Virus record (IMG/VR): IMGVR_UViG_3300037504_000201
Location: 1-64,000 of that record
Length of the DNA: 64,000 nucleotides
From: a virus
Lineage: Duplodnaviria; Heunggongvirae; Uroviricota; Caudoviricetes
Reading direction: 5' to 3' (one strand)
The notes beneath the pieces were generated by a model that made no database searches, was not told the DNA's origin, and saw nothing but the letters and a program-made list of their open reading frames with translations. This document shows positions 46,487 through 62,565 of the stretch, one piece after another. Made by a program: the position numbers and the translations under genes. The stretch's first letter is position 1; each line of letters starts with the position of its first letter.

Positions 46487-46516
46487 AGTATACACTATCC
46501 CGTGTATGGTTGTCAA
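46487..46516 (-). promoter_or_regulatory. leaderless promoter class C, copy 1, with TACAC-N6-GTGTA operator
   Basis: TTGACA-ACCATACACGGGATAGTG-TATACT-AGAT-ATG. Confidence 0.7.
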
Positions 46517-46522
46517 TATGCC

Positions 46523-47143
46523 TTAACCGTGCCTCGTTAACGAGTACAACAATCCAGCGTCAAAGTTCTCATTAATGACATCCTCACTCCACCTCGATCG
46601 CACCTCGTCGGCAGTCATTCCCAGCTTCTGCTCAAGCCTCTTGATCTCGGCTTGCTCTTCGTCGCCAGTCATTATGCCGTCGTAACCAAGAAACCAACGA
46701 ATTGCTTTAAACCATCCTGGATTACGATAAGGCTCTTTGTTGTCCAGAACTATGTCAATAAACTCTCTCAGCGCCGTCGCGTAATCTCTTAGCGCTTCAA
46801 CCAGGCACAATCCCTCACCATAGCAAAACGTCACGTCGTCGTTGACGATAAAGTGGCATCGCCCATCCCGCTCTATGTTTATGGCATAACGCATACTCAT
46901 ACCGTGATCATTATCATTAATTGGGGCGTCTCTTGATTGTGTCGGTCTATCGTCGGGAAGCTGTGGTATATCACGGTACACTATGATGCATTCATTGCAG
47001 GCATTAGACGTCGCGCATCCAACTTGCCCCAGGTCGCCACCGTATTTGCTCTTGTCCGGATCGACAGCGACAAAGACGGGCATGTCGCCAAACGCATTAA
47101 GATGAACCTGTAATTGGTGGATCAACTCAGATAGTGACGCCAT
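46523..47143 (-). CDS. hypothetical protein (lower-GC moron)
   Basis: RBS GAAGGGG. Cys-rich. GC below the genome mean. Confidence 0.5.
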   Translation of the reverse strand: MASLSELIHQLQVHLNAFGDMPVFVAVDPDKSKYGGDLGQVGCATSNACNECIIVYRDIPQLPDDRPTQSRDAPINDNDHGMSMRYAINIERDGRCHFIVNDDVTFCYGEGLCLVEALRDYATALREFIDIVLDNKEPYRNPGWFKAIRWFLGYDGIMTGDEEQAEIKRLEQKLGMTADEVRSRWSEDVINENFDAGLLYSLTRHG

Positions 47144-47164
47144 AATATCCCCTTCGTATAGATA

Positions 47165-47233
47165 TCTGACTTTATCGATTCTCCTAAAACATTATTATTA
47201 TATTTTAAAAGAATCAATTATCTCAAATTGATT
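47165..47233. repeat. AT-rich palindromic element, copy 6
   Basis: CTGACTTTATCGATTCTCCTAAAAC, spacer, arm GAATCAATTATCTCAAATTGATT. TTGAGA-18-TATAAT on the minus strand points at 46523-47143. Confidence 0.75.
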
Positions 47234-47698
47234 TTACCGCCCCAGTACCTTGCGGATCACACCGACCACACCGTCAACGAACTTGTCGCGGAACATCTCC
47301 GCTGCCTCGTCAATGCGACGCCAGCCGCGCGCGCCGTGATAGTCAGCTTGATAGCCGCCGGGGCCGTGCACGTCTTGCGCATAGCTAACAGGGTTCTCGA
47401 CGGTCACCTCGGTCACGTCCGACAGGTAGGTTGACCAATGGTCACCCAACTGCTCGGACACAGACGTCTGCTCAAGCGTGCCGTCGGAGTAGAGATACAT
47501 CCCACCGGTGCCGCGCTTGTAAAATGACCCCCACGTGCCATACCTTGGCCGGTTAGCCTCAGACTCGGGCGGGTACTTGCCTACCCAATTCTCCATGGCC
47601 TTGCCTTGCTTGATAAGCATCGGCTGGGCTGCCCTGCGCAAGTCATCTACTAAGTTGGCGAACGTGGTTCGGACGGCACGGGTGTAGGCGCGGATCAT
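47234..47698 (-). CDS. hypothetical protein
   Basis: ATGA coupling. Confidence 0.45.
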   Translation of the reverse strand: MIRAYTRAVRTTFANLVDDLRRAAQPMLIKQGKAMENWVGKYPPESEANRPRYGTWGSFYKRGTGGMYLYSDGTLEQTSVSEQLGDHWSTYLSDVTEVTVENPVSYAQDVHGPGGYQADYHGARGWRRIDEAAEMFRDKFVDGVVGVIRKVLGR

Positions 47699-48213
47699 CT
47701 CAAAAGCTCCGGCATGTCCAATTGCTCATCCAACGCGTCGATGAACGTGTGCCACTCGGGCAAGCGATGGGCCTTGCGTTGGCCTCGGATGCGCTTAAGC
47801 GTCTTATAATTCGTCTTGATAATCCGGCGCTGAAGGAACGACTCGGGCAGCTCGCGCTTGACTTGCCGCCAGTCGCCGTCTGCTATCAACGTGTTAAGCC
47901 AGAACAGTGTGGACGGCACAATCTCGCCCTCAAAGTCATCTTGCGTCAAGGGGCGCCTGGTGATCGTATACATTGTGGATTCGCTCTGCTTGGACACGCC
48001 CACGCGGTAGGTGTCAGCTTGCTGCCACCAATAGCGAGGGGCCGTCACGTCAATCCACACCTCGATGAACTCAAGGAATTTGTTGTGCCCGCCGTCTTTG
48101 GGCGCCAGTCTCTCCGCAACTGCCGACATCTGATCAACCGGCTTATTGCGCGATAAGCTCAGGCCCAACAGCGCGAATTCGTAGCCGTATTCACCCAGCA
48201 CCTTGACAATCAT
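47695..48213 (-). CDS. hypothetical protein
   Basis: ATGA coupling. Confidence 0.45.
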   Translation of the reverse strand: MIVKVLGEYGYEFALLGLSLSRNKPVDQMSAVAERLAPKDGGHNKFLEFIEVWIDVTAPRYWWQQADTYRVGVSKQSESTMYTITRRPLTQDDFEGEIVPSTLFWLNTLIADGDWRQVKRELPESFLQRRIIKTNYKTLKRIRGQRKAHRLPEWHTFIDALDEQLDMPELLR

Positions 48214-49160
48214 TCCACCACCGCCTGGACCAGCTGCCCGCTGTAAAATTCCGTCGCGTCTGCAAACGCTAACACCGGATCGTCAGGCACCCGGTTGTTG
48301 AACACGCGCCGGGCGAGGGCGCGGACAATGCGCTGCTCGCCTTCCAATCTCAATACCCCATCGCCTAGCGAGAATGCCGCCACGTCGCGCGCCGCCCGCT
48401 CGTTGTGGTCAAAGACATAAAAGGTCAACGTCATCCGCTCGTCGCTGTCAACCTCTGCTTGCCCGGCTTGCAACATCGCGTTGAAAGCTTGATAATCGGC
48501 CTCAAGCGCGTTGCGATCCATCGCGGTGCCGTAACGGTCAACCATGCGGCGCTCGGCTACCTCGTCATCTCCGTTGAACCAACGAATGGCGCGCATGCTA
48601 ATGAGCCGCTCGGCGGCCTCACGCACAGCGATCTCGACTTCAGCACCGACGTCGCCATACTCAAGCGCTTCAACCCGCGCTATCATCATATCTCTGACAC
48701 GATGCGAACCGTAACCGCTGCCCATCAGGCACGTGTCGAGGCCCATATCGCGCTCGACCTCGGGAAGCGCCGTGTAAAGCGCGCTCGCCGGGTTGGTGAC
48801 GGGGGCCAGTGTCGCCCCTTGATAATCCACGCCCCACACCGCCCCCACTCCGTCCACAATCAAGCTGGACGGGGAGCGAACGGGGACGCCCAGTAAGTAG
48901 TCCAGCACCAGCAGCGCCTCGGCCCGCTCGTTGCGTGGCACATCGATGCCCAGCGACGGCTTGGCGCCGACGAACTCACGCAAGAATTTACCGTCCGCCA
49001 CATCGACGGTGACCGGAACAATAGGATTGCTTGGCAACAGCTTCTCGGACAGCACATAGGCGGCATAGTTGAGCGGGTCTTCCATCTCGACTAGAATGTT
49101 ATCATCGGTGTAGCATAGGTATTTATACATCTTCCACCTCGGCACTTCGCCGGTATACAA
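48210..49160 (-). CDS. hypothetical head-module protein
   Basis: 316-aa ORF. The alternative start at Met11 (49130) has better coupling. Confidence 0.4.
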   Translation of the reverse strand: MYTGEVPRWKMYKYLCYTDDNILVEMEDPLNYAAYVLSEKLLPSNPIVPVTVDVADGKFLREFVGAKPSLGIDVPRNERAEALLVLDYLLGVPVRSPSSLIVDGVGAVWGVDYQGATLAPVTNPASALYTALPEVERDMGLDTCLMGSGYGSHRVRDMMIARVEALEYGDVGAEVEIAVREAAERLISMRAIRWFNGDDEVAERRMVDRYGTAMDRNALEADYQAFNAMLQAGQAEVDSDERMTLTFYVFDHNERAARDVAAFSLGDGVLRLEGEQRIVRALARRVFNNRVPDDPVLAFADATEFYSGQLVQAVVE

Positions 49161-49770
49161 GCCGACACCGGCAATTGGTCAGACACTGCGTGCTCCCATC
49201 ACCGGGGAACGCGCCGCCATACGGGTTTAGTCGCATTGGACGCCACTCCATCGCCGCAAACTCTACGCAGTCCGGGCAGCTCTCGGCCTCGGGATCCAGC
49301 ACCCACTTCACCTCGTCAAATCGCGCCTCAATATGCGCGCGTTGCTTGCCACGCTCGTAGGCTTCGCGGGCCGAGTTGATGTACATCCGCGCGCGCGCTC
49401 TGATCTGCGCTGTGGACAATGCGCCGTCCGCTATCTGCTCGGCAAATCGATCAAGGAACCGGTATTGCTCGGTGAGCATCCCGCCGATTGAGCCCCAGTC
49501 CGCAGGCGTCATCTGGTCGCGCCCGCCACGCCCGAACAGATACTGTCGGATGTACTCGTCCTTGATCTCTTGGCGCATCGCGTCGCGCCAGTCTCCAGGC
49601 GAGATAAGCGGCGGGTCGCTGCCGGCCATCTCGGCAAGCGTGTCGGTGCGCGACGCGCTCACCTCAAGCGACGCGTCGACCAGCTCTATCGCGCGGGCAC
49701 GGGACATATAGCGACCGGTCTCCATGTCGCGGTAGCGCGCTGATCGGATGTCCCAAGCCCAGGTTGCCAT
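49123..49770 (-). CDS. minor head protein (MuF/SPP1 gp7-like, tentative)
   Basis: Position after the portal. C-terminal CPDC...C motif. TAATG coupling. Confidence 0.35.
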   Translation of the reverse strand: MATWAWDIRSARYRDMETGRYMSRARAIELVDASLEVSASRTDTLAEMAGSDPPLISPGDWRDAMRQEIKDEYIRQYLFGRGGRDQMTPADWGSIGGMLTEQYRFLDRFAEQIADGALSTAQIRARARMYINSAREAYERGKQRAHIEARFDEVKWVLDPEAESCPDCVEFAAMEWRPMRLNPYGGAFPGDGSTQCLTNCRCRLVYRRSAEVEDV

Positions 49771-49952
49771 TACTCTTCGCCTTCCTCCGCCTCGACCACG
49801 TAATACCACGGCGTCTGCTTGGCAATTTCGTGCGGCGTGTCGCTGGGGACGATGACGGAGGCGATAACGCCCTCTTCTAGCTCTTTACCTTGAACCTCGT
49901 AAAGCTTGCGGTCGCCGTGTTTGTCCGGGTCATAGTCGATGTATCTGGGCAT
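49770..49952 (-). CDS. small acidic protein
   Basis: TAATG coupling to the portal stop, with RBS GGAGG. Confidence 0.4.
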   Translation of the reverse strand: MPRYIDYDPDKHGDRKLYEVQGKELEEGVIASVIVPSDTPHEIAKQTPWYYVVEAEEGEE

Positions 49953-52396
49953 TAGTCACTGCCTCCAAATATTTCATCTAGGGAATCGACTTCTAAATAT
50001 TCGGCAAGAGCTTGTCGCTGTTCATTCGAACCATAATGATATACCCTAAAGGTATCGGCCTTAAATTCGAGATCTTTGGTTAGTGAGTACTCACGAAGGC
50101 CATACCTAGCAAGGTCGCCCTTCGTCACTCTATCCACAAACCCATACCTATAAGCATCCTTCATGTCCTTAAAACCATTAACCAATAAATCGTTCGCCCT
50201 TTGACCACGCTTACTCTCCAAGAACGCAGAGCGCATGGTTACATGGTGCCCAAGCTCGTGAGAGAAGATATACCTTGAAGACGATATAAAATCAGGATTT
50301 ATATGTATTGATTGCTCTTGCGGATCGTACACTCCTGCAGCATCATAATCGCCTACGTGGGAACGCCAAGGATTATCTGGCGAAAGTTGCGCGCGGATCT
50401 TTGTTGGCTCCGTCGTAATCCGCTTCAGCCCTTCCAAGTGTCGCGGCTGAATCTCATCTCGCACCATCATATCAACAACGACTTTGCGCGTCTTTTCATC
50501 AAGGCCCTCTACCAACTTGCGCCCAGGCCCAACCTCAAAGTATCGCGGATTGACACGTCCGCTTCCACGCATTGAACCCGGAGCACTCCCGCCGCGTTTC
50601 CCAGGGCGCCCAGCATGCCCCCAGTTGCCACTACCTGGGCCGCCTTTCACGTTCTCATCCCACGTCGGCGCGTTCATCAACTGCGCCCACTCGTCACTCA
50701 CCCGCGCAGCGCCCGCCACGGCCCGCTCGGCGTCGGTCTGCGTGATGGTCAACGTATCGTTGGCGAATAACGTGTCTCGGTCGGGCACAGGCATAAACTC
50801 GACGACCTCCTCCGGCTCCGACTCATTGTAGCGCGCCAAGAGCAGCGCCTCGGCGGTGGCGTCCTTGACCTCTGTGATAGGCAGATCGACCGGCGTCGCC
50901 GCAATCTCACGCAGGCCGGCAAACACCTCAAGCACGCCTTGGTCGCTCACGCCATCGGGTAGCGCAGTCAGCGCCGCTTCGGTCAGTGATTTTAGCCAGG
51001 CGGGGATGTCGTGGCACACGAACGGCGCCGACGACGGGTGCCGGCCAGACTGAGCGAAGCGCAACGCCTTGCGCTCCCACTTGCCCAGCTCGTCAAGCGC
51101 CTTGTTCTCTTCTTCTGCGGGCGGCTCTTCTTGCGTCTGTTCCTCGCCTTGCTGCCCCATCGATGCCAGCTCCGGTATCAATGGGATAAAGCGGGTGGGC
51201 AACGTGTCGCAGTACTCTGCCACCGGGCCGGCCTCGATAGGATCCAGGCCCTGCTTGGCCCGCGCCTCGTTGACCGTCATGTCCGGCGCGTATGTCGTAT
51301 AATCTTGACGGTCCTCATCACGTCGGGCGGGGCGAAAGTCCTCGTACTGACAAATGAATTGCTCGCCGTAGGTGGGCCGAATGAACTGCGTGGTGATGTC
51401 CCCGGCTAGAAGCTGCGCAATTGGGTAAACGTGCCACTCGGTCACCATGTCAAGGGACGCATACATCGAGGCGTAGGTGGTGTTCTGCGCCCCCAGCGCC
51501 TCCGACCAGCCCAGCACCTCCATAAACTCGCGGCGGTTGGAATCGCTCAACTGGACGATAGCCAGGTCGTCCAGGTTCATCTCCATCGCCTTGACGTCCA
51601 TATCGCCCGCGCGCATCACCAGCGCCGCCCGGTCCACCACCCGCAGCTCTTTGATAATCTCGTCGCGGATAGCAAAAAACTGCGAGCGCGTGACCGGCTT
51701 TTTGATGTTAAAGATGGTGGTGGGGGAGGCGTTCCTTGGCCCGAAAAAGTTCTCACGGAATCTCCGCTGGCCTAACTCAGTCTTGATGGTGCTCTCAAGC
51801 GCGCTTACCCCGCTCATCCCGTCCAATGGGTCGAGGATGTTGGGCATGCGACACCAAATGACTTGCGTGTGAGGAATCAGATAGGGCCGCCCGTCGCGCC
51901 CAGAGAACTCGTAGCCCAACACCGGCGTCTTGGTGTCGGGGCCTGGGATAGGCTGCACCGACATCGGCGGCAAGGGCCACAATGACTCCGGTTCAAGATT
52001 ATCATCCAGCCCTACAAAGATGAACGCGCTACCGCGAATCGGCAGACATAGCCCAATGAACCAGCGGAAGAACACGCCCGACATGAATGAGTTGGGGTCG
52101 TGCAAGAGAAGCTCGAACGGGTGATTCTCGACCGGCGTCGGCTTGTCCTCGGGCTTGGCACGCTCATAGATGCCGGGGATATAGCTGGAGAGAATCTTGG
52201 CGATGCCGTTGGCTGCTGTGTAGACGGGCGGGAGCTTGAGCGCCTTGCGCTGCAAGCTCTCGTGACTTGCGCCGGGCGCGGCACGTGATATGCCGCCGCC
52301 CATCGAGATAGGCAGATCGGGCACGGCGGGGTAAGGCTCACGTTCCCCAGGCCGTTCAATGCTCAGCTTTCCGACCCCCGGAATTCTGAATCTCAT
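49952..52396 (-). CDS. portal protein with C-terminal extension containing Gly-rich motif and HExxH zincin-like domain
   Basis: N-terminal 480 aa is portal-like. Then GGPGSGNWGHAGRPGKRGGS. Then a 230-aa domain with IFSHELGHHV. Confidence 0.65.
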   Translation of the reverse strand: MRFRIPGVGKLSIERPGEREPYPAVPDLPISMGGGISRAAPGASHESLQRKALKLPPVYTAANGIAKILSSYIPGIYERAKPEDKPTPVENHPFELLLHDPNSFMSGVFFRWFIGLCLPIRGSAFIFVGLDDNLEPESLWPLPPMSVQPIPGPDTKTPVLGYEFSGRDGRPYLIPHTQVIWCRMPNILDPLDGMSGVSALESTIKTELGQRRFRENFFGPRNASPTTIFNIKKPVTRSQFFAIRDEIIKELRVVDRAALVMRAGDMDVKAMEMNLDDLAIVQLSDSNRREFMEVLGWSEALGAQNTTYASMYASLDMVTEWHVYPIAQLLAGDITTQFIRPTYGEQFICQYEDFRPARRDEDRQDYTTYAPDMTVNEARAKQGLDPIEAGPVAEYCDTLPTRFIPLIPELASMGQQGEEQTQEEPPAEEENKALDELGKWERKALRFAQSGRHPSSAPFVCHDIPAWLKSLTEAALTALPDGVSDQGVLEVFAGLREIAATPVDLPITEVKDATAEALLLARYNESEPEEVVEFMPVPDRDTLFANDTLTITQTDAERAVAGAARVSDEWAQLMNAPTWDENVKGGPGSGNWGHAGRPGKRGGSAPGSMRGSGRVNPRYFEVGPGRKLVEGLDEKTRKVVVDMMVRDEIQPRHLEGLKRITTEPTKIRAQLSPDNPWRSHVGDYDAAGVYDPQEQSIHINPDFISSSRYIFSHELGHHVTMRSAFLESKRGQRANDLLVNGFKDMKDAYRYGFVDRVTKGDLARYGLREYSLTKDLEFKADTFRVYHYGSNEQRQALAEYLEVDSLDEIFGGSD

Positions 52397-52403
52397 ATGC
52401 TAC

Positions 52404-54927: not shown

Positions 54928-55232
54928 TTACTAGCATCCTCCCAGGCGTCCACCGCTTTTCTCGCTATCATGAACGTATCAATGCCCATGCCGAACAATA
55001 ACGACGTTTTTACGTCTGGCAAAAAGCTATAAATTCTCTCTCTCAGAAAATCGCCAGACGTTCCGCCGAACTGCCTTGGTAGACAAATGATCAGCTCGTC
55101 ACCAGGACTAATAAGCTCGCCAATTTCGGAGATGATAAACGCAGCCGCGTCCGCATGATCACTAAAAGAATGGCACGTTACAACAAACGCCATCCCGGAT
55201 TTTGTAGGTATCACATTGTACCCGTCACTCAT
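54924..55232 (-). CDS. hypothetical protein
   Basis: ATGA coupling with RBS GGAAGG. Confidence 0.4.
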
Positions 55233-55690
55233 CCAGGGTCCCATCCTTCCAGCGGCACCAGCCAGCTCGCCGGGTTGGTCAGCTTGACCAGCTCTATGCC
55301 GATCTCGTGTAGCAAGTCGCGCGGCCAGCTCTTGCGGTCCAGCTCGGCACGCGTGCGCGCCAGCTCGCCGAACGGGACGAGCAAGGCCACGCCTCGGTCG
55401 CGCGGGGCGTAGAACTCGAAGGCGGCCCACGTACTGGCGGTGGTGGCGTGACACGTCGCCAGTGCAGTCCACTGCTCATCGCTGAATGTGTCCGTAAAAT
55501 TGACGCTCGTCACCGGCTCCTTGCACGTCTTGCACTCACAAAAGAATCCTTTGCCGTTGACGAGACATCCCAATAGGTCGATTGGGTTTTTTAGCCCTCT
55601 ATAATCCGTCGGGCGATGCACCCAAGCAACCATCGGGGACGCCTGGAAGCAATTCTTCATCTCGGTCTCAAAACTGCTGTGGCGACTCAT
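55229..55690 (-). CDS. PD-(D/E)xK nuclease (Hjc/RecU-like resolvase candidate)
   Basis: Leaderless start. IDLLGCL...FFCECK fits the D...ExK motif. Confidence 0.4.
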   Translation of the reverse strand: MSRHSSFETEMKNCFQASPMVAWVHRPTDYRGLKNPIDLLGCLVNGKGFFCECKTCKEPVTSVNFTDTFSDEQWTALATCHATTASTWAAFEFYAPRDRGVALLVPFGELARTRAELDRKSWPRDLLHEIGIELVKLTNPASWLVPLEGWDPG

Positions 55691-55696
55691 ATTACA

Positions 55697-55726
55697 AGTA
55701 TACACCATACCGTGTATGGTTGTCAA
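55697..55726 (-). promoter_or_regulatory. leaderless promoter class C, copy 2
   Basis: TTGACA-ACCATACACGGTATGGTG-TATACT-TGTAAT-ATG. Confidence 0.7.
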
Positions 55727-55747
55727 CGGGCGGGAATGGTAAAAGTG

Positions 55748-55855
55748 TACACGGTTCCGTGTAACTTAGCCGACTTAGTTTTAGCTCTTAAAACATTATA
55801 TATATATTTTAAGGGAATCAATTATGTCAAATTGATTGCTCTTGAATGCACTAGG
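55748..55855. repeat. AT-rich palindromic element, copy 7 (hairpin-extension type)
   Basis: TACACGGTTCCGTGTA, CTTAGCCGACTTAGTTTTAGCTC, spacer, arm GAATCAATTATGTCAAATTGATT, extension TGAATGCACTAG. The minus-strand TTGACA-18-TATATATA is in sense. Confidence 0.75.
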
Positions 55856-55888: not shown

Positions 55889-55918
55889 TAAAAAAAGCCC
55901 CGCCGGGGGTGGCGGGGT
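55889..55918 (-). terminator. rho-independent terminator
   Basis: On the minus RNA: CCCCGCC-ACCCCC-GGCGGGGC, then UUUUUUUAUU. Confidence 0.7.
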
Positions 55919-55937
55919 TGGGGTTGGTACGGCGTGG

Positions 55938-56408
55938 CTATTTGTCGATAAGCATCTCTTCCAGTTCGTCCCACATCTCGGACGCCAGTTCATCCCGGTA
56001 AAACCAGGCGCTTTCTTCCTCGATCTGCTCGTCCGTCAGCGCTGGGACGCGGATGATAACGCCGTTCGATTGGTAGCGGTTGCCGATCTGGGCGCTCGAC
56101 AGCACGCGATAGGCGCCGTCGTCGAACAGCTCGGCGGCGTAGTACTCGCCATTCGCCGCTGCTTGCGTGCTCTTGACGATAGTCGGCACAAAGTCAATGC
56201 TATCGATGAATGCCCTCAGCGCCCACTTGAGCGCGGCAAAGCGCTGTCCGCGAAGGTGGGATGCGTAGTGTCTCAGCGCGTCGTCGATGATTGCCACGCG
56301 GTCGCCGTGCTGCCCGGCATCGCGGTGGGTCAGCACGGCAAGCTCGTCGAATAAGTCAGCGCGGTTGTCTGCCGCGCTGTAAACGTTGGTGTATCCGTTG
56401 CTGGACAT
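55938..56408 (-). CDS. hypothetical protein
   Basis: TAATG coupling. Confidence 0.45.
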   Translation of the reverse strand: MSSNGYTNVYSAADNRADLFDELAVLTHRDAGQHGDRVAIIDDALRHYASHLRGQRFAALKWALRAFIDSIDFVPTIVKSTQAAANGEYYAAELFDDGAYRVLSSAQIGNRYQSNGVIIRVPALTDEQIEEESAWFYRDELASEMWDELEEMLIDK

Positions 56409-56695
56409 TAGAGCCACTTCTTCGTTGAGATGGCACCATCTGCGCTCTCGACAACGCTGACGCGGCGATTCACATCGGCCATGTATGGTCGACCGTGCTG
56501 GTCAACGTGGACCCAGCCGCGCCGCTTGACTTCAATGCCGTTTTTGTGCGCCCAATCGCGCATCCGGCGCTTGAAGCTCTCGACATCGGATTGAGTCGGA
56601 GCGATGACCTTTTCAAGGTTGACGCCACGGTCAACTTGCACGCCACTCAAGCGCGCATGGTATAAGCACTTTTGATTTTGATTACAAACACACAT
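56408..56695 (-). CDS. hypothetical Cys-rich protein
   Basis: RBS AAAAAGGAGATTGAG. N-terminus MCVCNQNQKC. Confidence 0.45.
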   Translation of the reverse strand: MCVCNQNQKCLYHARLSGVQVDRGVNLEKVIAPTQSDVESFKRRMRDWAHKNGIEVKRRGWVHVDQHGRPYMADVNRRVSVVESADGAISTKKWL

Positions 56696-56807
56696 CTCAA
56701 TCTCCTTTTTCATTCTAGCGATCCCCCATTACCGCATCGTTTTCAGCGGCACCCGCACGGCGCGGGCTGTAGGGCCAACCCTGCTTGTTAGGCGGGGGTT
56801 TTAGATA
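56696..56807 (-). ncRNA. conserved structured RNA leader, copy A
   Basis: 90-nt repeat with multi-hairpin potential. Compensatory changes relative to copy B. Confidence 0.4.
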
Positions 56808-57017: not shown

Positions 57018-57136
57018 TTCAATCTCTCCTTTTCTCATCAAGGCGATCCCCCATTACCGCATCGACTTTTCAGCGGCACCCGCACGGCGCGGGCTGTGGG
57101 GCCAACCCCGCTGGCTAGGCGGGGGTTTTGGAATTT
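57018..57136 (-). ncRNA. conserved structured RNA leader, copy B
   Basis: Near-identical to copy A, with a covarying GGGG-UUGG-CCCC versus AGGG-UUGG-CCCU stem. Confidence 0.4.
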
Positions 57137-57607: not shown

Positions 57608-57719
57608 CTTACTTCCTTTCTGCCGGTTTCTCGCGCACTCCGGCAAACGCTATCGGCCTTGCCACATCAGCTCCGGGCGGCCATCCCCGACGGACGCGGG
57701 CGCGTTGCCCGCGTTTCGG

Positions 57720-57947
57720 CTAGCGCTTTTTCAATTCGCGCCAAACGTCATCCTCAATCTTGGCATGAATGAAGCGCTTTTCGCCCTCATCGTACTCAAT
57801 CCCCTGCTCGCGACACCTCTTTTCCCAGCTATTCAAAACACCTTCGACGTATAGGCCAATGGACCAATCGAGAAATTCAGCAATGCTGAATGGGCTATCT
57901 TCCATCGCGCTATCGGCCACGCTGGCTAGCTTGTCAATGCTAGTCAT
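57720..57947 (-). CDS. hypothetical protein
   Basis: Internal Met overlapping the upstream stop. Confidence 0.35.
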   Translation of the reverse strand: MTSIDKLASVADSAMEDSPFSIAEFLDWSIGLYVEGVLNSWEKRCREQGIEYDEGEKRFIHAKIEDDVWRELKKR

Positions 57948-58131: not shown

Positions 58132-58140
58132 CTGTTCCTC

Positions 58141-58380
58141 CTATCGATTTCCCGCGAACAAGGAGCGCGCCCACTCCTCGTCCGTCTGCGGCTTCTCATT
58201 CTCTCGTTCTGCGCGCGCTTGGCGCTGAATATCACGCGCGCGCTCTAACTCTTCCTCGCTCAGCCGGCACCACTCGTGGCGCCAAGCGCTGGACAACCCG
58301 TGCTGCTGAGCTTGCCCGGTCTCGATTTGCTCGCGGGTGACCGGCTTGCCGCACTTGCGGCACTTGCGCTCGTATATCAT
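58141..58380 (-). CDS. zinc-ribbon protein
   Basis: TAGATG junction with RBS AAGGAG. CRKCG...C motifs. Confidence 0.45.
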   Translation of the reverse strand: MIYERKCRKCGKPVTREQIETGQAQQHGLSSAWRHEWCRLSEEELERARDIQRQARAERENEKPQTDEEWARSLFAGNR

Positions 58381-58839
58381 CTACTCAATCTCCTTAATCG
58401 CGCTCAAGTCCCAGACCACCAGGTTGTAGCTCTGTTGCTGCCACATCCCCTTGTAGCCCAGGTCCTTGAGCCAGTTGGTCGTCATTTGCCAGATCGCGTC
58501 GTCCTCGTGCGCGAACTGGCTAACGAATTCGTCGGCCTTTGCGGTGGGCTGCCCATCGGCTACCCAGCCGTTGGCTTCCAGCCACTCGCCAAAGCCGGCG
58601 ATCTCGGTGGGATTGACGGCGATGTCGTCCATTTCTACCGTGACCTGCACTACGGGCTGAATCCCGTAGTGCCCGAAGATTTGGCCTTCCCAGTATTCGG
58701 GGTTCTGGCTCAGATAGACGCCTTGCCCCATCTGGGTGCCGCCCTTGCTTCCGGCTTGGCTTGCGCTGAAGCCATTGGCGCGGATGCTCTTGGCTGATTC
58801 TTCGGTCGTTATGTGGTAGAATTTCTTGGTCGCCATTTG
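58381..58839 (-). CDS. ADP-ribosyltransferase-like (H-Y-E type) protein, tentative
   Basis: RBS AGGAGA. FYHITTEE...GVYLSQNPEYWEG...VEMDD is consistent with H/Y/E ART or Tpt1-like folds. Confidence 0.3.
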   Translation of the reverse strand, partial: QMATKKFYHITTEESAKSIRANGFSASQAGSKGGTQMGQGVYLSQNPEYWEGQIFGHYGIQPVVQVTVEMDDIAVNPTEIAGFGEWLEANGWVADGQPTAKADEFVSQFAHEDDAIWQMTTNWLKDLGYKGMWQQQSYNLVVWDLSAIKEIE

Positions 58840-58875
58840 CCGTCTCCTAGTTGGTCCATCTCCTAACCTGGCTAT

Positions 58876-58904
58876 AGTATACCACACATTCTAGAATATG
58901 TCAA
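58876..58904 (-). promoter_or_regulatory. sigma70-type promoter class A, copy 3
   Basis: TTGACA-TATTCTAGAATGTGTGG-TATACT. Same ATTCTAGAAT palindrome and upstream CAATTG as the copies at 2156 and 3025. Confidence 0.65.
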
Positions 58905-58945
58905 GTAAGTGGTGGCAATTGGTCTAAGTTTTTAAGGTTCGGTAG

Positions 58946-59036
58946 AATTCAATTTGACATAATTGATCGGCTTAAAACATATATTATATATTTTAAAAGA
59001 ATCAATTATGTCAAATTGATTGTGCGTGAATGCACT
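58946..59036. repeat. AT-rich palindromic element, copy 8 (complete two-arm copy)
   Basis: Left arm ATTCAATTTGACATAATTGATCGG, spacer, right arm GAATCAATTATGTCAAATTGATT plus GTGCGTGAATGCACTAG. Minus-strand TTGACA-18-TATATAAT. Confidence 0.8.
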
Positions 59037-59056
59037 AGATTGCGATGCAATAGGAA

Positions 59057-60664
59057 TTATACCCAACCCATAAGGACGGCGTTGTCGCCTTCGAGGGCGA
59101 AGGATAGCGCCAGGGCGTCGGCTTTATCTGGGGATCGTCCGAGGGAATCGCGCATCTTGTCTTTAGGCGTGATGCGTCGCACGCCACCTTTGTTCTCGTA
59201 CTGGATCGCCGTCAGCTCTTGCGCCAGTTGGTCGTCTGGCGGCAGCATCGCCGTAGGGTCGTCGTGAAGCCAGCGGCGCACCTGGTCGAATAGATAGGCG
59301 CGCAGGTCATAGTAGGCGGTGACGCCATCCTCGTTGGGTGGTGACTTCCAGCTTACCTTGACGCCCAGCACCTGCGTCTCGGCGAACGGCACGCGCTCGG
59401 AGCGGGCGAGGCCGGCAATCTCTTGTATCCTCTCAATCTCTTCGCGCATCCTTGGCGCCACACCGGCACCAACTCCCACGGCGTCCACGGCCACGGCGGC
59501 GGGGTGCACGTTGGCCAGGCGCATCGTCGCCTCTTTCGCCGTCTCGTTGGGGTCGATGCCGTTCCACAGCTCAAGCGGCGCCACCCACCCACCGTAGCGC
59601 TTGCACAGACAGTTAAAGTCGGCGCCAAACTCGGCGATGTCCAGCCCGACCAGCGGCGCGATGCCAGGCGGTTGGTCGCCCACCAGCTCTTGCCTCAGCT
59701 TCCATCGCCCCATCGCGCGCGTTACGTCGCTTTCGGGGATGAGCTGATTGAGCGACTGGCCGGGGAAGCGGGCCAGAACGATGTAGGAGAGTTGCGGGTC
59801 TTCGACTTTGCGCCACCCGGCGCCGACCTGGTCTGCTAAAAAGTCGGGCACCTTAAAATATTCAAGCTCGGCCTCGTCGAACTTTTCTCCGTCAACAACC
59901 GGGCGCGACCACTTTTCTATGCGCCGGATCGTTCGTCGTCTCGTCACGGCCCCGCCGGGGATCACTGTCTCGCCGGTGATGACGTTAGGATGGGAGAAGG
60001 CGTCGAGGGTGACGACGTGGGCGCCTTGGGTGATGAGCTTGTAGGCCGGTGAATTCTTGGACCTCGGGTTGAACATCACAAGCAGCCGGGCGAACCCGCC
60101 GCTCATACACGACTCAATGCCGCGATACACCTCTTCGGGCACCGCATCCCCTTCGTCAATGATAAAGAGAAGGAAGGGAGCGTGCTTGCCGGCAAACTTG
60201 GCTTCACGTTCTGCGCTGGATCCGCTCGTCGGGATCGCCACACCGTCAAACCACCAGTTAGGCCCGGCAGCGATGTGCATGGTGTGCACGTCGCAATCAT
60301 TGAACAGCTCCGGATGGTCCATAACGCGCTGGTCCACCTCGCCCCACAGCAGGCGCTGGAGGTTGTCAAGTGGCGGGGCAGCAGCGCTGACGATCTTGGA
60401 GTTGGTGAGGCAGCGGAAGAACCACACGCCCACGTCGGCGGCGATAAACGTCTTGCCGACGGCATTAGCCGACTTGACGACGGTGACGCGGTGGTCGACG
60501 ACGGACTGCAGTACCTCGGCTTGCCCGTCGGTGACGTGGTGGCCCAGTACGCGCCGGGAGAAGCCGATAGGGTCGAAGGCCCAGGCGGACCATTCGTTGG
60601 GGGAGAGGCGTTTTAGCCCGGCGACGGCCTCGCGCTGAAGAAGGTAGCGGTCATTCCTCGCCAT
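59057..60664 (-). CDS. terminase large subunit
   Basis: Walker A KSANAVGKT. About 535 aa with a nuclease-like C-terminus. Overlaps the small subunit gene. Confidence 0.75.
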   Translation of the reverse strand: MARNDRYLLQREAVAGLKRLSPNEWSAWAFDPIGFSRRVLGHHVTDGQAEVLQSVVDHRVTVVKSANAVGKTFIAADVGVWFFRCLTNSKIVSAAAPPLDNLQRLLWGEVDQRVMDHPELFNDCDVHTMHIAAGPNWWFDGVAIPTSGSSAEREAKFAGKHAPFLLFIIDEGDAVPEEVYRGIESCMSGGFARLLVMFNPRSKNSPAYKLITQGAHVVTLDAFSHPNVITGETVIPGGAVTRRRTIRRIEKWSRPVVDGEKFDEAELEYFKVPDFLADQVGAGWRKVEDPQLSYIVLARFPGQSLNQLIPESDVTRAMGRWKLRQELVGDQPPGIAPLVGLDIAEFGADFNCLCKRYGGWVAPLELWNGIDPNETAKEATMRLANVHPAAVAVDAVGVGAGVAPRMREEIERIQEIAGLARSERVPFAETQVLGVKVSWKSPPNEDGVTAYYDLRAYLFDQVRRWLHDDPTAMLPPDDQLAQELTAIQYENKGGVRRITPKDKMRDSLGRSPDKADALALSFALEGDNAVLMGWV

Positions 60665-61145
60665 CAATTCGCTGCTCGACCAGCGCGTCGATTAGCGCGT
60701 CCAGCTTCTCCGCGCGCTCGGTGTCGGTTAGGCCGGCGTGGACGGATTCAATGGGGCCGCCGTCCTTGCCGGTCAGCTCGGTGCGCGTCGGCGCGTCCAG
60801 TCCCATGAGGTCAGCCCGGCGCTTCATCAACTTGAGCACCCGGTCAATCGCGCTGTAATCGCCTTGCGCCGCCCGCGTCCAGATGCCAAGCAGCATCCGG
60901 TCGATGCGCTCAAGTTCTAGCGTGCGAACGGCGCCCGCATCGTCTGCGATTTGGTCACGCAACTTTTCAAGCTCGCGCTTGACGTCTTTGTGCGCGTAGC
61001 GTTCACCCCACCCACCGGGTAGATTGTCAATGCCAAACTCTCGCACCGCAGCGGCGGCGATGTCGCGATATGTGGCACCGGCACGGCGCATTTTTAGCAC
61101 GTATTCACGTCGTTCTGCCGTGTCTAACAAATCGCTTGTACCCAT
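60651..61145 (-). CDS. terminase small subunit (putative)
   Basis: N-terminal HTH (RRAGATYRDIAAAA). Position immediately upstream of the large subunit. Confidence 0.55.
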   Translation of the reverse strand: MGTSDLLDTAERREYVLKMRRAGATYRDIAAAAVREFGIDNLPGGWGERYAHKDVKRELEKLRDQIADDAGAVRTLELERIDRMLLGIWTRAAQGDYSAIDRVLKLMKRRADLMGLDAPTRTELTGKDGGPIESVHAGLTDTERAEKLDALIDALVEQRIDGEE

Positions 61146-61159
61146 CTTTGCGTACCCTA

Positions 61160-61894
61160 TTACTCCAACAACTCTGGTTCAAGCCCCATATCGGCCAAGC
61201 GTTGGAGCGCCACCGCCACATATTTCGGCTCTATCTCGATTCCTCTGCATTGCCGGCCTAGTCGCTCGCAAGCCACGGCGGTTGTGCCGGAGCCAAGGAA
61301 GGGGTCGAAGACCACATCACTGGAGTCGCTGCCGTGACGAAGCGCATTCTCGCACAATTCGACCGGCTTCATGGTTGGGTGCTCCCGCGACGCCGAAGGC
61401 TTGTCGTACTCCCACACAGTCGTCTGCTTGCGGTCGAGCGGCGCATGATGGTCTGCGCCGGGCTTCCATCCATAAAACAGTACCTCGTGCCTGTAATGGT
61501 AATCCGAATGCCCAAGCACCATCGTGTTTTTTACCCATACGATTGTCTGTCGCCACACCCCAATGCTCTTTAGTACTGTTGCGAAATCGTAGAATTGCGG
61601 CCCCGCCGGGGCCGCAATGTACCAGCACGCCCCATCGCGGCTCACATCGAAGGCCATGCATAGCGACTCGGACAGCAGCCCCAGAAGATCGTCCGCGCCG
61701 TCGTTCTGGATGGTAAGCGCGTCATCGGTCTTGCCGACGTAATCCACTCCATACGGCGGGTCAGTCACCACGCAATCCGCCTTCTCCCCGTCCATCACTA
61801 AATCAACAACGTCGGGATCGGTACAATCACCACAGACAAGTCTATGGCGGTACTTGATCTCTGGCTCAAATTCGTGACCGCATTGGCATTTCAT
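61160..61894 (-). CDS. DNA methyltransferase (N6-adenine/N4-cytosine, beta class) with N-terminal zinc ribbon
   Basis: DPPYG (motif IV) precedes FDPFLGSGTT (motif I). Starts 2 nt after the ParB-like stop. Confidence 0.8.
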   Translation of the reverse strand: MKCQCGHEFEPEIKYRHRLVCGDCTDPDVVDLVMDGEKADCVVTDPPYGVDYVGKTDDALTIQNDGADDLLGLLSESLCMAFDVSRDGACWYIAAPAGPQFYDFATVLKSIGVWRQTIVWVKNTMVLGHSDYHYRHEVLFYGWKPGADHHAPLDRKQTTVWEYDKPSASREHPTMKPVELCENALRHGSDSSDVVFDPFLGSGTTAVACERLGRQCRGIEIEPKYVAVALQRLADMGLEPELLE

Positions 61895-61896
61895 AG

Positions 61897-62529
61897 CTAA
61901 TCCAGCTTGTGCAATCTGCCGCACTTGGGGCAAATTGTATAACGCCCAATCCCCCACAACTGCCCAGATTCAACCCCCCACTTTTTGCGCAGCTCTTCCG
62001 CCTTGTCGATCTGCGCGCCGGGGTCCTCGGGCGGCTCTTGCGATAGCGCCAACAACGCCTCGATATCGCCCACGTCAAACGCCACCGGCGCCTCGTCCAT
62101 CTGCGCAAGCTCGGCAAGCTGCTGCTCAAAGTCGGCTTCCCACATTCGCATATGGTCAGTGAGATCAAAGTCGCCGCCGGATAGCGTCAATGCGTTGTGG
62201 TCCACTCCGTACGACTTGGCAGCCGCCTCGCTGGCAGCGTCAACGCCGAACGTGACGGGCACAAGCCAGCCGCCGTTGTCGTCAACAGCAATCCCGCGCG
62301 GCGGGTCGTCGCCAGCATTGCGCATCGCGTCCAACGCGATAAAGCGCCCGTTGCCTTCAACAATCCCGCCGTCGCCCTTGTTCAGCTGCGGCTCGAATTT
62401 AGGCGAGTCCTTGAATCCGTGGCGTTTGAAGGACTTAATCAGCGCCTCAATGTCATGGCGCTTCTTGTTATCGTCCCAAAGCAGCGCGAGGTTCAATGGC
62501 ACGTATTCGATGGTCAGTTTATCACTCAT
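61897..62529 (-). CDS. ParB-like nuclease domain protein
   Basis: Leaderless start. GNGRFIALDA and surrounding region are ParB/Srx-like. Paired with the methyltransferase. Confidence 0.5.
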   Translation of the reverse strand: MSDKLTIEYVPLNLALLWDDNKKRHDIEALIKSFKRHGFKDSPKFEPQLNKGDGGIVEGNGRFIALDAMRNAGDDPPRGIAVDDNGGWLVPVTFGVDAASEAAAKSYGVDHNALTLSGGDFDLTDHMRMWEADFEQQLAELAQMDEAPVAFDVGDIEALLALSQEPPEDPGAQIDKAEELRKKWGVESGQLWGIGRYTICPKCGRLHKLD

Positions 62530-62535
62530 ACCTCA

Positions 62536-62565
62536 AGTATACACTATCCCGTGTACGCTTGTCAA
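62536..62565 (-). promoter_or_regulatory. leaderless promoter class C, copy 3
   Basis: TTGACA-AGCGTACACGGGATAGTG-TATACT-TGAGGT-ATG. Confidence 0.7.

What the first reader, a model, noticed from the sequence alone, without database searches (positions are those of the whole stretch)
46487..62565. Leaderless promoter class C and a shared TACAC-N6-GTGTA operator present in seven copies
Three - strand genes have the ATG 4-6 nt after a consensus promoter with a conserved 18-nt spacer. These are TTGACA-aCCATACACGG(G/T)AT(A/G)GTG-TATACT-N4-6-ATG at 46487-46516, 55697-55726 and 62536-62565. The genes are the 79-aa repeat protein at 46243, the PD-(D/E)xK nuclease at 55229, and the ParB-like protein plus methyltransferase at 61897. 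These would be leaderless mRNAs.

The spacer contains the dyad TACAC-N6-GTGTA overlapping the -10. The same dyad occurs as perfect 16-18-bp palindromes, (T)TACACGGTTCCGTGTA(A), directly beside element copies 1, 4, 5 and 7 (1678-1691, 19417-19432, 30433-30450, 55748-55763).

One regulator probably controls both the leaderless moron promoters and the AT-rich elements. The controlled genes are DNA-modification and nuclease functions, which often need tight timing.
Basis: seen in the sequence. Interest (0 to 1): 0.8.

Follow-up and report, generated by a model that had tools for sequence, protein, structure and literature searches.

The report
Leaderless phage promoters sharing an operator-like dyad
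In an uncultivated 78-kb phage, three near-perfect bacterial promoters sit directly against the start codons of their genes, so the messages probably have no leader, and all three carry a short symmetric sequence that also recurs beside AT-rich repeats and probably binds one unidentified regulator; this is a well-supported but fairly ordinary kind of phage gene control.

Summary
The sequence observation holds. Three minus-strand copies of TTGACA-N18-TATACT lie 4 or 6 nt before an ATG at 46487-46516, 55697-55726 and 62536-62565. No Shine-Dalgarno sequence precedes these ATGs, although most other genes in the window have one.

Homologue N-termini confirm all three start codons. Orthologous loci elsewhere keep a consensus promoter at the same place. 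L012 and L011 also have the ATG exactly 6 nt after the -10, L007 has it 3 nt after, and L013 has an SD-containing leader instead. Between C1 and L007 the hexamers are 12/12 conserved but the spacer only 2/18, which is a classic promoter footprint.

The dyad claim is partly right. Only 4 sites match TACAC-N6-GTGTA exactly. The four sites beside AT-rich elements are ACACGG-NN-CCGTGT. The promoter sites share one perfect half-site (TACACGG) and one 5/7 half-site with them.

A shared dimeric regulator is plausible, with repression at the promoters the likeliest mode, but it is unproven. No regulator gene was recognised, and the dyad is absent from more distant relatives.

"Moron promoters" is wrong for two of the three. 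They head the terminase operon and the nuclease-to-portal operon. I class this as a new member of a known kind, of moderate interest.

The parts
46487..46516 (-). Class C promoter C1. The -35 TTGACA is at 46516-46511, the 18-nt spacer at 46510-46493 and the -10 TATACT at 46492-46487. The dyad TACACGGGATAGTGTA is at 46506-46491. The ATG at 46482 is 4 nt after the -10.
   Evidence: The orthologous promoter in L007 keeps both hexamers and the 18-nt spacing but not the spacer sequence.
46243..46482 (-). 79-aa protein gene. The protein has two DDYLC-containing helices forming a helical hairpin. Function unknown.
   Evidence: Homologue P0122 is 57% identical and aligned from residue 1. Of 44 identical residues, 25 use synonymous codons, and the third codon position is the most variable. 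The AF2 model has two helices at pLDDT 76. No fold match was found.
46149..46209 (-). Intrinsic terminator closing the C1 cassette: a hairpin with perfect 25-nt arms followed by a T-run.
   Evidence: (I25). An equivalent hairpin follows the homologue in L007.
55697..55726 (-). Class C promoter C2. The dyad TACACGGTATGGTGTA is at 55716-55701. The ATG at 55690 is 6 nt after the -10.
   Evidence: The 39 nt from the -35 to the ATG are identical in L012.
55229..55690 (-). RecU/PrfA-like (PD-(D/E)xK type) nuclease gene, first cistron of the operon that runs to the portal gene.
   Evidence: phrog_843 Holliday junction resolvase, E 2e-6. The N-terminus MSRHSSFETEM is conserved in P0212 and P0213. L013 has an SD-led Met at the homologous position. 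An ATGA overlap couples it to the next gene.
62536..62565 (-). Class C promoter C3. The dyad TACACGGGATAGTGTA is at 62555-62540. The ATG at 62529 is 6 nt after the -10.
   Evidence: The orthologous gene in L011 has a terminator, then TTGACA-17-TACAAT, then 6 nt, then the ATG.
61897..62529 (-). Stand-alone ParB-like protein gene (210 aa, C-terminal CPxCG). It is followed by an N6/N4 DNA methyltransferase (61160-61894), a 164-aa ORF and large terminase (59057-60667).
   Evidence: (in alignment A1 the conserved domain starts 3-5 residues after the Met in most homologues).
55748..55763 (.). P2 site TACACGGTTCCGTGTA. It lies between AT-rich element 55763-55836 and promoter C2, centred about 65 bp upstream of the C2 ATG.
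   Evidence: Conserved in L012.
1677..1692 (.). P2 site (TTAACACGG TT CCGTGTTAA, 9-nt arms) abutting element 1693-1766.
19417..19432 (.). P2 site TACACGGTTCCGTGTT beside element 19432-19505.
30433..30448 (.). P2 site AACACGGAACCGTGTA beside element 30359-30432.
30560..30575 (.). Possible eighth, weaker site TACACGGTTTAGTGTG, 127 bp from the P2 site at 30433. Its right arm TAGTGT matches the class C promoters.
55763..55836 (.). AT-rich palindromic element upstream of C2: a P1 arm (AATCAATT-N6-AATTGATT), an AT core and a CTAAG-repeat arm. One of nine copies or half-copies at 1693, 8276, 10149, 19432, 30359, 47159, 55763, 58947 and 62580.
   Evidence: (D1, D2)
62580..62653 (.). AT-rich palindromic element (P1, core, P1) upstream of C3. 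It has no P2 site.
62674..62700 (-). Intrinsic terminator upstream of element 62580 and C3. A paralogous terminator at 55898-55917 lies upstream of element 55763 and C2.
   Evidence: (D10)

Best explanation
The three class C sequences are host sigma-70-type promoters with consensus hexamers and an 18-bp spacer. Their transcripts start at, or within a nucleotide or two of, the AUG of the first cistron, so that cistron is translated as a leaderless mRNA.

- C3 drives ParB-like, DNA methyltransferase, a 164-aa ORF and large terminase.
- C2 drives the RecU-like nuclease through to portal and head genes.
- C1 drives a self-contained cassette holding the 79-aa gene, which ends at its own terminator.

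A 16-bp dyad is superimposed on the spacer and the first two bases of the -10. It is TACACGG-NN-T(A/G)GTGTA, spanning about -26 to -11. It is a weaker version of the ACACGG-NN-CCGTGT site (P2) found 44-45 bp from the centre of four AT-rich promoter-like elements.

The most likely mechanism is as follows. One dimeric DNA-binding protein, phage-encoded and not yet identified, recognises TACACGG half-sites. When bound at class C it occludes the -10 and spacer and keeps these otherwise constitutive consensus promoters off until the right time. At the stronger P2 sites it sits upstream of the element's core promoter, at about -52 to -60, where it could activate or insulate.

Leaderless translation of the first cistron would give little nuclease or ParB-like protein. 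The SD-led or coupled downstream genes would be translated normally.

Status of each step:
- Shown: the sequences, their geometry, the start codons, and conservation of the promoter position in relatives.
- Inferred: the transcription start sites, leaderless translation, binding by a protein, the sign of regulation, and that one protein serves both site types.
For: Promoter:
- Each copy matches 11 of 12 hexamer positions with an 18-nt spacer.
- Four orthologous loci have a consensus promoter directly upstream of the same genes. These are L007 TTGACA-18-TATACT, L011 TTGACA-17-TACAAT, L012 identical to C2 and L013 TTGACA-17-TATAAT.
- Between C1 and L007 the hexamers are 12/12 conserved and the spacer only 2/18. 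The adjacent coding DNA differs at about 44% of sites.

Leaderless:
- No SD precedes the three ATGs, whereas most genes in the window have GGAG-type SDs.
- The start codons are fixed by homologue N-termini and by the SD-led Met of L013.
- The ATG begins 6 nt after the -10 in C2, C3, L012 and L011. This is the geometry of lambda PRM-cI (own knowledge).
- It also fits the rule that a -10 hexamer in place of an SD upstream of the start codon marks leaderless genes (PMC4633059).

Operator:
- The exact dyad occurs 4 times against 0.01 expected.
- The 7-mer TACACGG occurs 15 times against 6.3 expected, and 8 of those are in the named sites.
- The 5 variable positions among the three spacers all fall outside the dyad arms (hypergeometric p about 0.03, own calculation).
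- Similarity among C1, C2 and C3 stops exactly at the two hexamers, and the genes are unrelated. This argues for selection rather than a copied segment.
- The orthologous promoters in L007 and L011 have unrelated spacers, so this lineage has brought three pre-existing promoters to one spacer sequence.
- P2 keeps its 44-45-bp distance from the element centre even where its neighbouring arm differs, at 1677 compared with the other three sites.
- P2 and class C are both conserved in L012. There the substitutions fall in linkers and in positions that also vary among the window copies.

Low translation of a leaderless first cistron has a precedent in the acuR operon (PMC3017554).
Against: - No transcript data exist.
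- In C1 and its orthologue L007 the ATG is only 4 and 3 nt after the -10. A canonical start site, about 7 nt after the -10, would miss the AUG.
- No HTH, RHH or other regulator family was recognised in about 60 ORFs scanned with Pfam and PHROGs.
- The dyad is absent from the more distant orthologous promoters L007, L011 and L013.
- L012 is close at the DNA level, about 90% identical in conserved coding parts. Its 93-100% identity in the regulatory region is therefore only a weak footprint.
- The right arm GTG-TA may partly reflect a promoter-intrinsic 'GTG before the -10' feature. This is also seen in class B promoters and in relatives' promoters.
- Three of the four P2 sites are inside near-identical long repeats.
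- The P2 site and the dyad at C2 are 47 bp apart, which puts them on opposite helical faces and does not favour looping.
Confidence: 0.55

Rival explanations
1. The three sequences are real leaderless promoters, but no operator is involved. The shared spacer reflects a phage promoter family optimised for RNA polymerase, or promoter copying or gene conversion within the genome. The resemblance to P2 is partly chance.
For: - Phage promoter families often share sequence outside the hexamers. In this window, class B (TTGACA-TATTCTAGAATGTGT..) and the element promoters also have family-specific spacers.
- L009/L038 and L031/L032 have promoter families of their own.
- GTG just before the -10 recurs in other promoters.
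- The dyad is not conserved in L007 or L011.
- No regulator was found.
Against: - A perfect 7-nt half-site is shared with P2. The chance of this in one of three promoter-class spacers is about 4e-3 (own estimate).
- The dyad is fully symmetric over 5+5 positions in all three copies.
- Variable positions avoid the arms.
- Similarity ends sharply at the hexamers.
Confidence: 0.25
2. Two different proteins are involved. P2 belongs to the AT-rich element machinery, for example as an activator site for the element's core promoter. The class C dyad is bound by something else, or P2 acts on C2 only as an upstream site.
For: - P2 has a fixed 44-45-bp offset from the element centre in all four copies and always lies on the side away from the downstream SD-led gene.
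- In L012 a real gene lies on the far side of the element.
- C1 and C3 have no P2 nearby.
- The inner two positions of the class C right arm differ from P2.
Against: - The left half-site is identical at 7/7 positions and the arm spacing is the same.
- A third site type at 30560 combines a perfect half-site with the class C type right arm.
Confidence: 0.12
3. The genes are not leaderless. They are expressed from longer transcripts that start in the upstream AT-rich elements or earlier. The class C sequences would then be weak, silent or purely regulatory sites.
For: - Element arms carry TTGACA-18-TATAAT-like promoters reading the same way, 85-110 bp upstream of C2 and C3.
- The C1 and L007 geometry is too tight for a canonical start site.
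- This phage otherwise relies on SDs.
Against: - A leadered transcript would present these ATGs with no usable SD. The GAGG in C3 is only 1 nt from the ATG.
- Terminators sit upstream of C2 and C3.
- Consensus hexamers are conserved at this exact place in four relatives.
- L013 shows the promoter is used with a 20-nt SD leader, so the site is a genuine promoter position.
Confidence: 0.06
4. MerR-like activation. A dimer bound in the over-long 18-bp spacer untwists the DNA to align the -35 and -10, so the dyad is an activator site.
For: The dyad lies between consensus hexamers separated by a spacer longer than optimal.
Against: - MerR-type promoters have 19-20-bp spacers with the dyad centred in the spacer (own knowledge).
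- Here the spacer is 18 bp and still functional.
- The dyad centre is about -18.5 and overlaps the -10.
- No MerR-family domain was found.
Confidence: 0.02

Closest known systems
Lambda PRM-cI leaderless mRNA with operators overlapping the promoter
   Same: - The phage uses a host sigma-70 promoter whose transcript begins at the AUG (PMC10491246).
- There are 6 nt between the -10 and the ATG.
- A dimeric-repressor dyad overlaps the core promoter.
- C2 and C3 even start ATGAGT, with A at +4 as in cI.
   Different: - Here the leaderless genes are first cistrons of lytic or late-type operons, not an immunity repressor.
- The dyad sits in the spacer and -10 rather than at the -35.
- No repressor was identified.
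- The lambda operator layout is taken from my own knowledge, not tested here.
acuR-acuI-dddL leaderless operon of Rhodobacter sphaeroides (TetR-type repressor)
   Same: The operon has a leaderless first cistron translated at a lower level than the downstream genes. It is repressed through cis sequences at the promoter (PMC3017554).
   Different: That is a cellular, autoregulated operon whose first gene is itself the regulator. Here the first genes are a nuclease, a ParB-like protein and a helical-hairpin protein.
Multi-copy phage operators: phiC31 conserved inverted repeats and mycobacteriophage L5 gp71 'stoperators' (own knowledge)
   Same: One short operator motif recurs at a promoter and at many intergenic positions across a phage genome, next to repeated promoter or terminator modules.
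   Different: - Those systems are immunity repressors of temperate actinophages with 15-30 sites.
- L5 sites are asymmetric and block elongation.
- Here there are 7-8 sites of two strengths, and lysogeny functions were not seen in the window.
phi29 protein p4 switch (own knowledge)
   Same: One dimeric phage protein represses promoters where its site overlaps the core and activates where it lies upstream, giving an early-to-late switch on host sigma-A promoters.
   Different: - The recognition sequence is different.
- p4 works together with protein p6.
- Dual action here is only a hypothesis.
Leaderless genes of Actinobacteria and Deinococcus-Thermus and their phages
   Same: A -10 hexamer replaces the SD directly upstream of the start codon (PMC4633059).
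   Different: There, leaderless genes make up a large fraction of all genes. Here only 3 of about 90 genes are leaderless, in a phage that otherwise uses strong SDs. The host is unknown.

Membership tests
Sigma-70-type promoter | -35 and -10 hexamers close to TTGACA/TATAAT, separated by 17 +/- 1 bp | tested here: met
   TTGACA-18-TATACT in all three copies, 11 of 12 hexamer positions.
Sigma-70-type promoter | Hexamers conserved in orthologous loci while the spacer and flanks diverge | tested here: met
   L007 has hexamers 12/12 and spacer 2/18. L011 and L013 have consensus promoters at the same place.
Sigma-70-type promoter | Transcription initiates there | not testable with these tools
   There are no transcript data for this uncultivated phage.
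Leaderless mRNA gene | -10 hexamer ends about 6-7 nt before the start codon, so that +1 is the A of the AUG | tested here: met
   Met for C2 and C3, with 6 nt between, and for L011 and L012. C1 has 4 nt and L007 has 3 nt, which is tighter than canonical and so inconclusive for C1.
Leaderless mRNA gene | No Shine-Dalgarno sequence upstream of the start codon | tested here: met
   No SD at 3-12 nt for the three genes, whereas most other genes have one.
Leaderless mRNA gene | The annotated ATG is the true start codon | tested here: met
   N-termini are conserved in homologues: 79-aa protein (A3), ParB-like (A1) and nuclease (A2). L013 has an SD-led Met at the homologous codon.
Leaderless mRNA gene | Mapped 5' end at the start codon and translation from it | not testable with these tools
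   Needs 5'-RACE, Cappable-seq or a reporter assay.
Repressor operator overlapping a core promoter | Dyad-symmetric site of 14-20 bp overlapping the -35, spacer or -10 | tested here: met
   TACAC-N6-GTGTA spans spacer positions 5-18 plus the first 2 nt of the -10 in all three copies.
Repressor operator overlapping a core promoter | The same motif recurs at other regulatory sites (a regulon), above chance | tested here: met
   Four P2 sites plus one weak site. There are 10 hits at <=3 mismatches against 2.5 expected and 15 TACACGG against 6.3 expected. Caveat: three of the P2 sites lie in long near-identical repeats.
Repressor operator overlapping a core promoter | A cognate DNA-binding protein is encoded by the phage or host | tested here: inconclusive
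   No HTH, RHH or other regulator family was found in about 60 ORFs. About 14 kb of the contig lies outside the window. The host is unknown.
Repressor operator overlapping a core promoter | The motif is conserved in relatives | tested here: inconclusive
   Conserved in the close relative L012. Absent from L007, L011 and L013.
MerR-type activated promoter | 19-20-bp spacer with the dyad centred in the spacer, plus a MerR-family regulator | tested here: not met
   The spacer is 18 bp. The dyad centre is about -18.5 and overlaps the -10. No MerR domain was found.
Moron (autonomous promoter-gene-terminator insert) | Own promoter and own terminator flanking a dispensable gene between conserved genes | tested here: met
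   Met for C1 only. Promoter 46487-46516, the 79-aa gene and terminator 46149-46209 form a cassette that is conserved in L007.
Moron (autonomous promoter-gene-terminator insert) | The same criterion applied to C2 and C3 | tested here: not met
   No terminator follows the first gene. The nuclease overlaps the next gene by ATGA. The methyltransferase ATG is 2 nt after the ParB stop. The operons continue to portal and large terminase.

The most novel reading that the evidence does not exclude
A single small dimeric phage protein, from a family not recognisable by current profiles, reads TACACGG half-sites in two grades. High-affinity perfect sites lie at about -52 to -60 of -35-less promoters inside the AT-rich elements, where it would activate. 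Low-affinity sites lie inside the spacer of consensus leaderless promoters, where it would repress. Its rising concentration would then sequentially switch tail and lysis operons on and packaging and head operons off, or the reverse. Leaderless first cistrons would add a translational throttle for the toxic nuclease and ParB-like proteins.
Probability: 0.2. Interest if true: 0.55.

Novelty: new member of a known kind. Interest (0 to 1): 0.4.

Why it matters
This would be a clean, comparatively supported example of leaderless first cistrons at the head of phage packaging and head operons. The phage otherwise uses strong Shine-Dalgarno sites. It suggests deliberate low translation of a nuclease and a ParB-like protein from the same transcript that makes abundant structural proteins.

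The window also shows three promoter classes built on identical consensus hexamers. They differ only in spacer palindromes: P1 (AATCAATT-N6-AATTGATT), TTCTAGAA, and TACACGG-N2-..GTGTA. That is a compact, synthetic-biology-like scheme for temporal control that could be rebuilt in vitro.

It does not open a new category. Leaderless phage genes, operators overlapping promoters and multi-copy phage operators are all known.

Tried and rejected
1. Close relatives by DNA:
- Megablast against INPHARED found nothing.
- Pattern scans for the class C promoter and the P1 arm found nothing real in IMG/VR, GTDB genomes or JGI metagenomes. The one hit, L001, is a chance match in AT-rich DNA.

2. Capsid-based relatives (L003-L006, at most 50% identity) share only the head module. 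None of the motifs is present.

3. ParB-like relatives:
- 14 GTDB loci and 52 IMG/VR loci carry no P1, P2 or class C motif, and no further leaderless ParB genes.
- Two strict pattern hits, in L031 and L046, precede only 25-aa and 7-aa ORFs. They are promoters, not leaderless genes.
- The MAG labels of these loci span many phyla, so the host cannot be inferred.

4. Getting the rest of the 77,750-bp contig failed. Look-ups returned only short Logan contigs.

5. Regulator hunt. Pfam and PHROGs on about 60 ORFs found no DNA-binding regulator. The only hint is a sub-threshold Lsr2-like DNA-binding hit in 56408-56713.

6. The idea that the 79-aa protein is the dyad binder was rejected. The model is a plain two-helix hairpin with no fold match.

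7. The idea that the ParB-like and methyltransferase ORFs are one frameshifted gene was rejected. Stand-alone ParB-like proteins of about 195-250 aa ending in CPxCG are the rule among homologues.

8. P2 as an RNA hairpin or terminator was rejected. The stem is 5-6 bp with a 2-4-nt loop, and there is no consistent T-run.

9. Resemblance to the CRP, FNR and LexA consensus sites was considered from memory and rejected. The arm orientation or spacing differs.

10. A literature search for the exact motifs found nothing.

Full report
**Context**

The window is part of an uncultivated tailed-phage contig.
- The major capsid protein is 100% identical to a protein on a 77,750-bp JGI contig. The next relatives are at most 50% identical.
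- GC content is about 58%.
- Genes run on the plus strand from 1 to about 20 kb, and include a helicase, DUF5131, an RNA ligase and Toprim.
- Genes run on the minus strand from about 20 to 64 kb, and include large terminase 59057-60667, portal 49952-52396 and capsid 41838-43265.
- Nothing close exists in INPHARED, IMG/VR or GTDB genomes.

**1. The observation**

| Copy | Sequence (minus strand) | Coordinates |
|---|---|---|
| C1 | TTGACA-ACCATACACGGGATAGTG-TATACT-AGAT-ATG | 46516-46480 |
| C2 | TTGACA-ACCATACACGGTATGGTG-TATACT-TGTAAT-ATG | 55726-55688 |
| C3 | TTGACA-AGCGTACACGGGATAGTG-TATACT-TGAGGT-ATG | 62565-62527 |

- The consensus scan scores each copy 11/12 with an 18-nt spacer.
- The full pattern with N6-ATG occurs twice against 0.02 expected.
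- The exact dyad TACAC-N6-GTGTA occurs four times against 0.01 expected: the three promoters plus 55748.
- The other three 'palindromes' match only the inner ACACGG-NN-CCGTGT and have 1-2 mismatches to TACAC-N6-GTGTA.
- These sites are inverted arms around an asymmetric TT/AA centre, not perfect palindromes.
- Three of them lie inside 91-102-nt repeats that are 91-98% identical.
- Against the element-side consensus TACACGGNNCCGTGTA, each promoter site has one perfect half-site and one 5/7 half-site.
- An eighth, weaker site sits at 30560-30575.

**2. Are these promoters?**

The best evidence is comparative.
- **L007.** The 79-aa protein has one real homologue, P0122 (57% identity, aligned from residue 1). 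On its 589-bp contig, L007, the gene is preceded by TTGACA-cggcattggtatttgagg-TATACT-tga-ATG. The hexamers are 12/12 identical and the spacing is again 18 nt, but the spacer matches at only 2/18. The coding DNA differs at about 44% of sites.
- **L011.** The ParB-like gene's 62%-identical homologue has a terminator hairpin, then TTGACA-17-TACAAT-ggggat-ATG.
- **L012.** The nuclease's 71%-identical homologue has the whole regulatory region, including a class C promoter identical over 39 nt.
- **L013.** The nuclease's 60%-identical homologue has TTGACA-17-TATAAT followed by a 20-nt leader with AAGGAG.

A consensus promoter at this exact position is therefore an old, conserved feature of all three genes.

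**3. Are the genes leaderless?**

Start codons:
- The 79-aa ORF has no other possible start. It is a real protein: 25 of 44 identical residues use synonymous codons, and the third codon position is the most variable.
- In the ParB-like alignment, the conserved L(T/R)(I/L)EY(V/I)PL block begins 3-5 residues after the Met in most of the 22 homologues aligned.
- The nuclease N-terminus MSRHSSFETEM is conserved in both homologues. In L013 this Met is served by a good SD. That rules out both the in-frame ATG in the C2 spacer and Met11.

Other evidence:
- None of the three ATGs has an SD at 3-12 nt, whereas most other genes in the window do.
- In C2, C3, L012 and L011 exactly 6 nt separate the -10 from the ATG. 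This places the A at the modal start position, as in lambda PRM-cI (own knowledge; PMC10491246).
- It also fits the rule that a -10 hexamer in place of an SD marks leaderless genes (PMC4633059).

Caveat. In C1 the gap is 4 nt, and in L007 it is 3 nt. With E. coli-like start-site selection, the transcript would begin inside or after the ATG. C1 is therefore only possibly leaderless.

**4. What the promoters drive**

- **C3.** It is preceded by a terminator and an AT-rich element. It drives the ParB-like gene, a methyltransferase whose ATG is 2 nt after the ParB stop, a 164-aa ORF and large terminase.
- **C2.** It has the same upstream module, with a paralogous terminator (D10). It drives the nuclease, which overlaps the next gene by ATGA. 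No predicted terminator lies in the intergenic gaps on the way to portal; the one terminator-like hairpin (52791-52775) is inside an ORF.
- **C1.** It is a closed cassette ending in a hairpin with 25-nt arms plus a T-run. The cassette is conserved in L007.

'Moron' therefore fits C1 only.

By analogy with the acuR operon, where the leaderless first cistron is translated less than the downstream genes (PMC3017554), leaderlessness may keep the nuclease and ParB-like protein scarce. This is inference.

**5. The dyad**

For an operator:
- The 5+5 symmetry is perfect in all three copies.
- The five variable spacer positions all lie outside the arms (p about 0.03, own calculation).
- Similarity among the copies ends exactly at the hexamers, although the genes are unrelated.
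- The orthologous promoters of L007 and L011 have unrelated spacers, so this lineage has converged three pre-existing promoters on one spacer.
- The perfect TACACGG half-site is shared with P2. TACACGG occurs 15 times against 6.3 expected, with 8 of those in the named sites.
- P2 behaves as a module. It sits 44-45 bp from the element centre whether its neighbour is a P1 arm (1677) or a CTAAG-repeat arm (19417, 30433, 55748).
- In L012, substitutions fall in linkers and in positions that also vary among the window copies. The P2 core and class C are intact.

Against an operator:
- L012 is about 90% identical in conserved coding parts, so that footprint is weak.
- The dyad is missing in more distant relatives.
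- GTG before the -10 also occurs in other promoters here and in relatives, which could account for part of the right arm.
- No regulator gene was recognised.

The position of the site, about -26 to -11, favours steric repression. The MerR model fails on spacer length, dyad position and the absence of a MerR domain.

At the elements, P2 lies at about -52 to -60 of a core promoter that, in the CTAAG-arm versions, lacks a -35. This is compatible with activation, so dual action like phi29 p4 (own knowledge) is possible but speculative.

**6. Verdict**

| Claim | My estimate |
|---|---|
| The class C sequences are promoters | close to certain |
| C2 and C3 are leaderless | about 0.8 |
| C1 is leaderless | about 0.5 |
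| The dyad is an operator | about 0.55-0.6 |
| The same protein binds class C and P2 | about 0.45-0.5 |

This is a new member of known kinds: leaderless phage genes, operators overlapping promoters, and multi-copy phage operators. It sits in a phage with no characterised relatives.

Noticed in passing
window 57651-57721 (-): Rfam gathering-level hit to the type II hammerhead ribozyme (RF02276, 41 bits against a threshold of 37, E 6e-5). It lies between two small minus-strand ORFs in the class B-driven operon.
   Followed up: no
window 1693-1766, 8276-8349, 10149-10184, 19432-19505, 30359-30432, 47159-47232, 55763-55836, 58947-59020, 62580-62653: There are nine AT-rich elements or half-elements. 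Each full arm is a 22-bp palindrome, AATCAATT-TGACAT-AATTGATT (P1), that contains a TTGACA -35. This -35 lies 18 nt from a TATAAT-like -10 in a palindromic CTTAAAA-N13-TTTTAAG core. A symmetric element therefore looks like two overlapping divergent promoters with an operator on each -35. In three copies one arm is replaced by ACTTAG direct repeats plus P2.
   Followed up: partly
window 2156-2184 (+), 3025-3053 (+), 58904-58876 (-): A third promoter class has the form TTGACA-TATTCTAGAATGTGT..-TATA(A/C)T, with a 17-nt spacer. Its spacer carries its own palindrome, ATTCTAGAAT. This suggests a second spacer operator.
   Followed up: no
L012 1-420 versus window 19432-19560 and 55690-55840: In relative L012 one element sits between the nuclease gene and a divergent MQVVWM... 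gene. In the window, the homologue of that gene is 36 kb away, beside element 19432. The elements therefore mark rearrangement junctions or module boundaries.
   Followed up: partly
window 46523-47232 versus L007 1-131: In L007 the C1 cassette directly follows the homologue of gene 47234-47698, and that gene's stop codon lies inside the -35. In the window, element 47159 plus a 206-aa gene (46523-47143) are inserted between them.
   Followed up: partly
window 56408-56713 (-): A 101-aa ORF gives weak Lsr2-like DNA-binding domain hits (phrog_1223 E 1.4e-4; PF23359 at 16 bits, below threshold). Lsr2 binds AT-rich DNA in Actinobacteria. This is a possible binder of the AT cores and a faint host hint.
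   Followed up: no
window 56706-56805 and 57031-57132: A direct repeat of about 100 nt (85-92% identical) contains a terminator-like hairpin on the plus strand. It lies within a run of small Cys-rich ORFs.
   Followed up: no
window 46135-46209: The head operon gene 45158-46135 starts (GGAGG-N6-ATG) only 24 nt after the very strong C1 terminator, and no good promoter lies between them. Capsid-operon transcription seems to need read-through or antitermination.
   Followed up: no
window 20213-20241 (+): A near-consensus promoter, TTGACA-17-TACAAT, lies at the convergence point of the plus- and minus-strand gene blocks. It points into the 3' end of the minus-strand tail operon and may produce an antisense RNA.
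   Followed up: no
L037 2908-2935 and 3160-3187 (-): A distantly related 84-kb viral contig has two promoters, TTGACA-CCGTC...ACGGTG-TATAAT. The first (at 3160) carries a 7-nt-arm dyad, ACACCGT-N6-ACGGTGT, spanning the -35 to the -10; the second (at 2908) keeps it only imperfectly. Spacer dyads on consensus promoters may be a recurring theme in this phage group.
   Followed up: no
window 61897-62529 and 61160-61894 (-): The ParB-like protein ends in CPKCG and the adjacent methyltransferase begins MKCQCGHEF. Many 195-aa homologues end in CPxCGHEF. Together the two ORFs cover consecutive parts of one PHROG profile. This may be a gene fission or fusion boundary at a zinc ribbon.
   Followed up: partly
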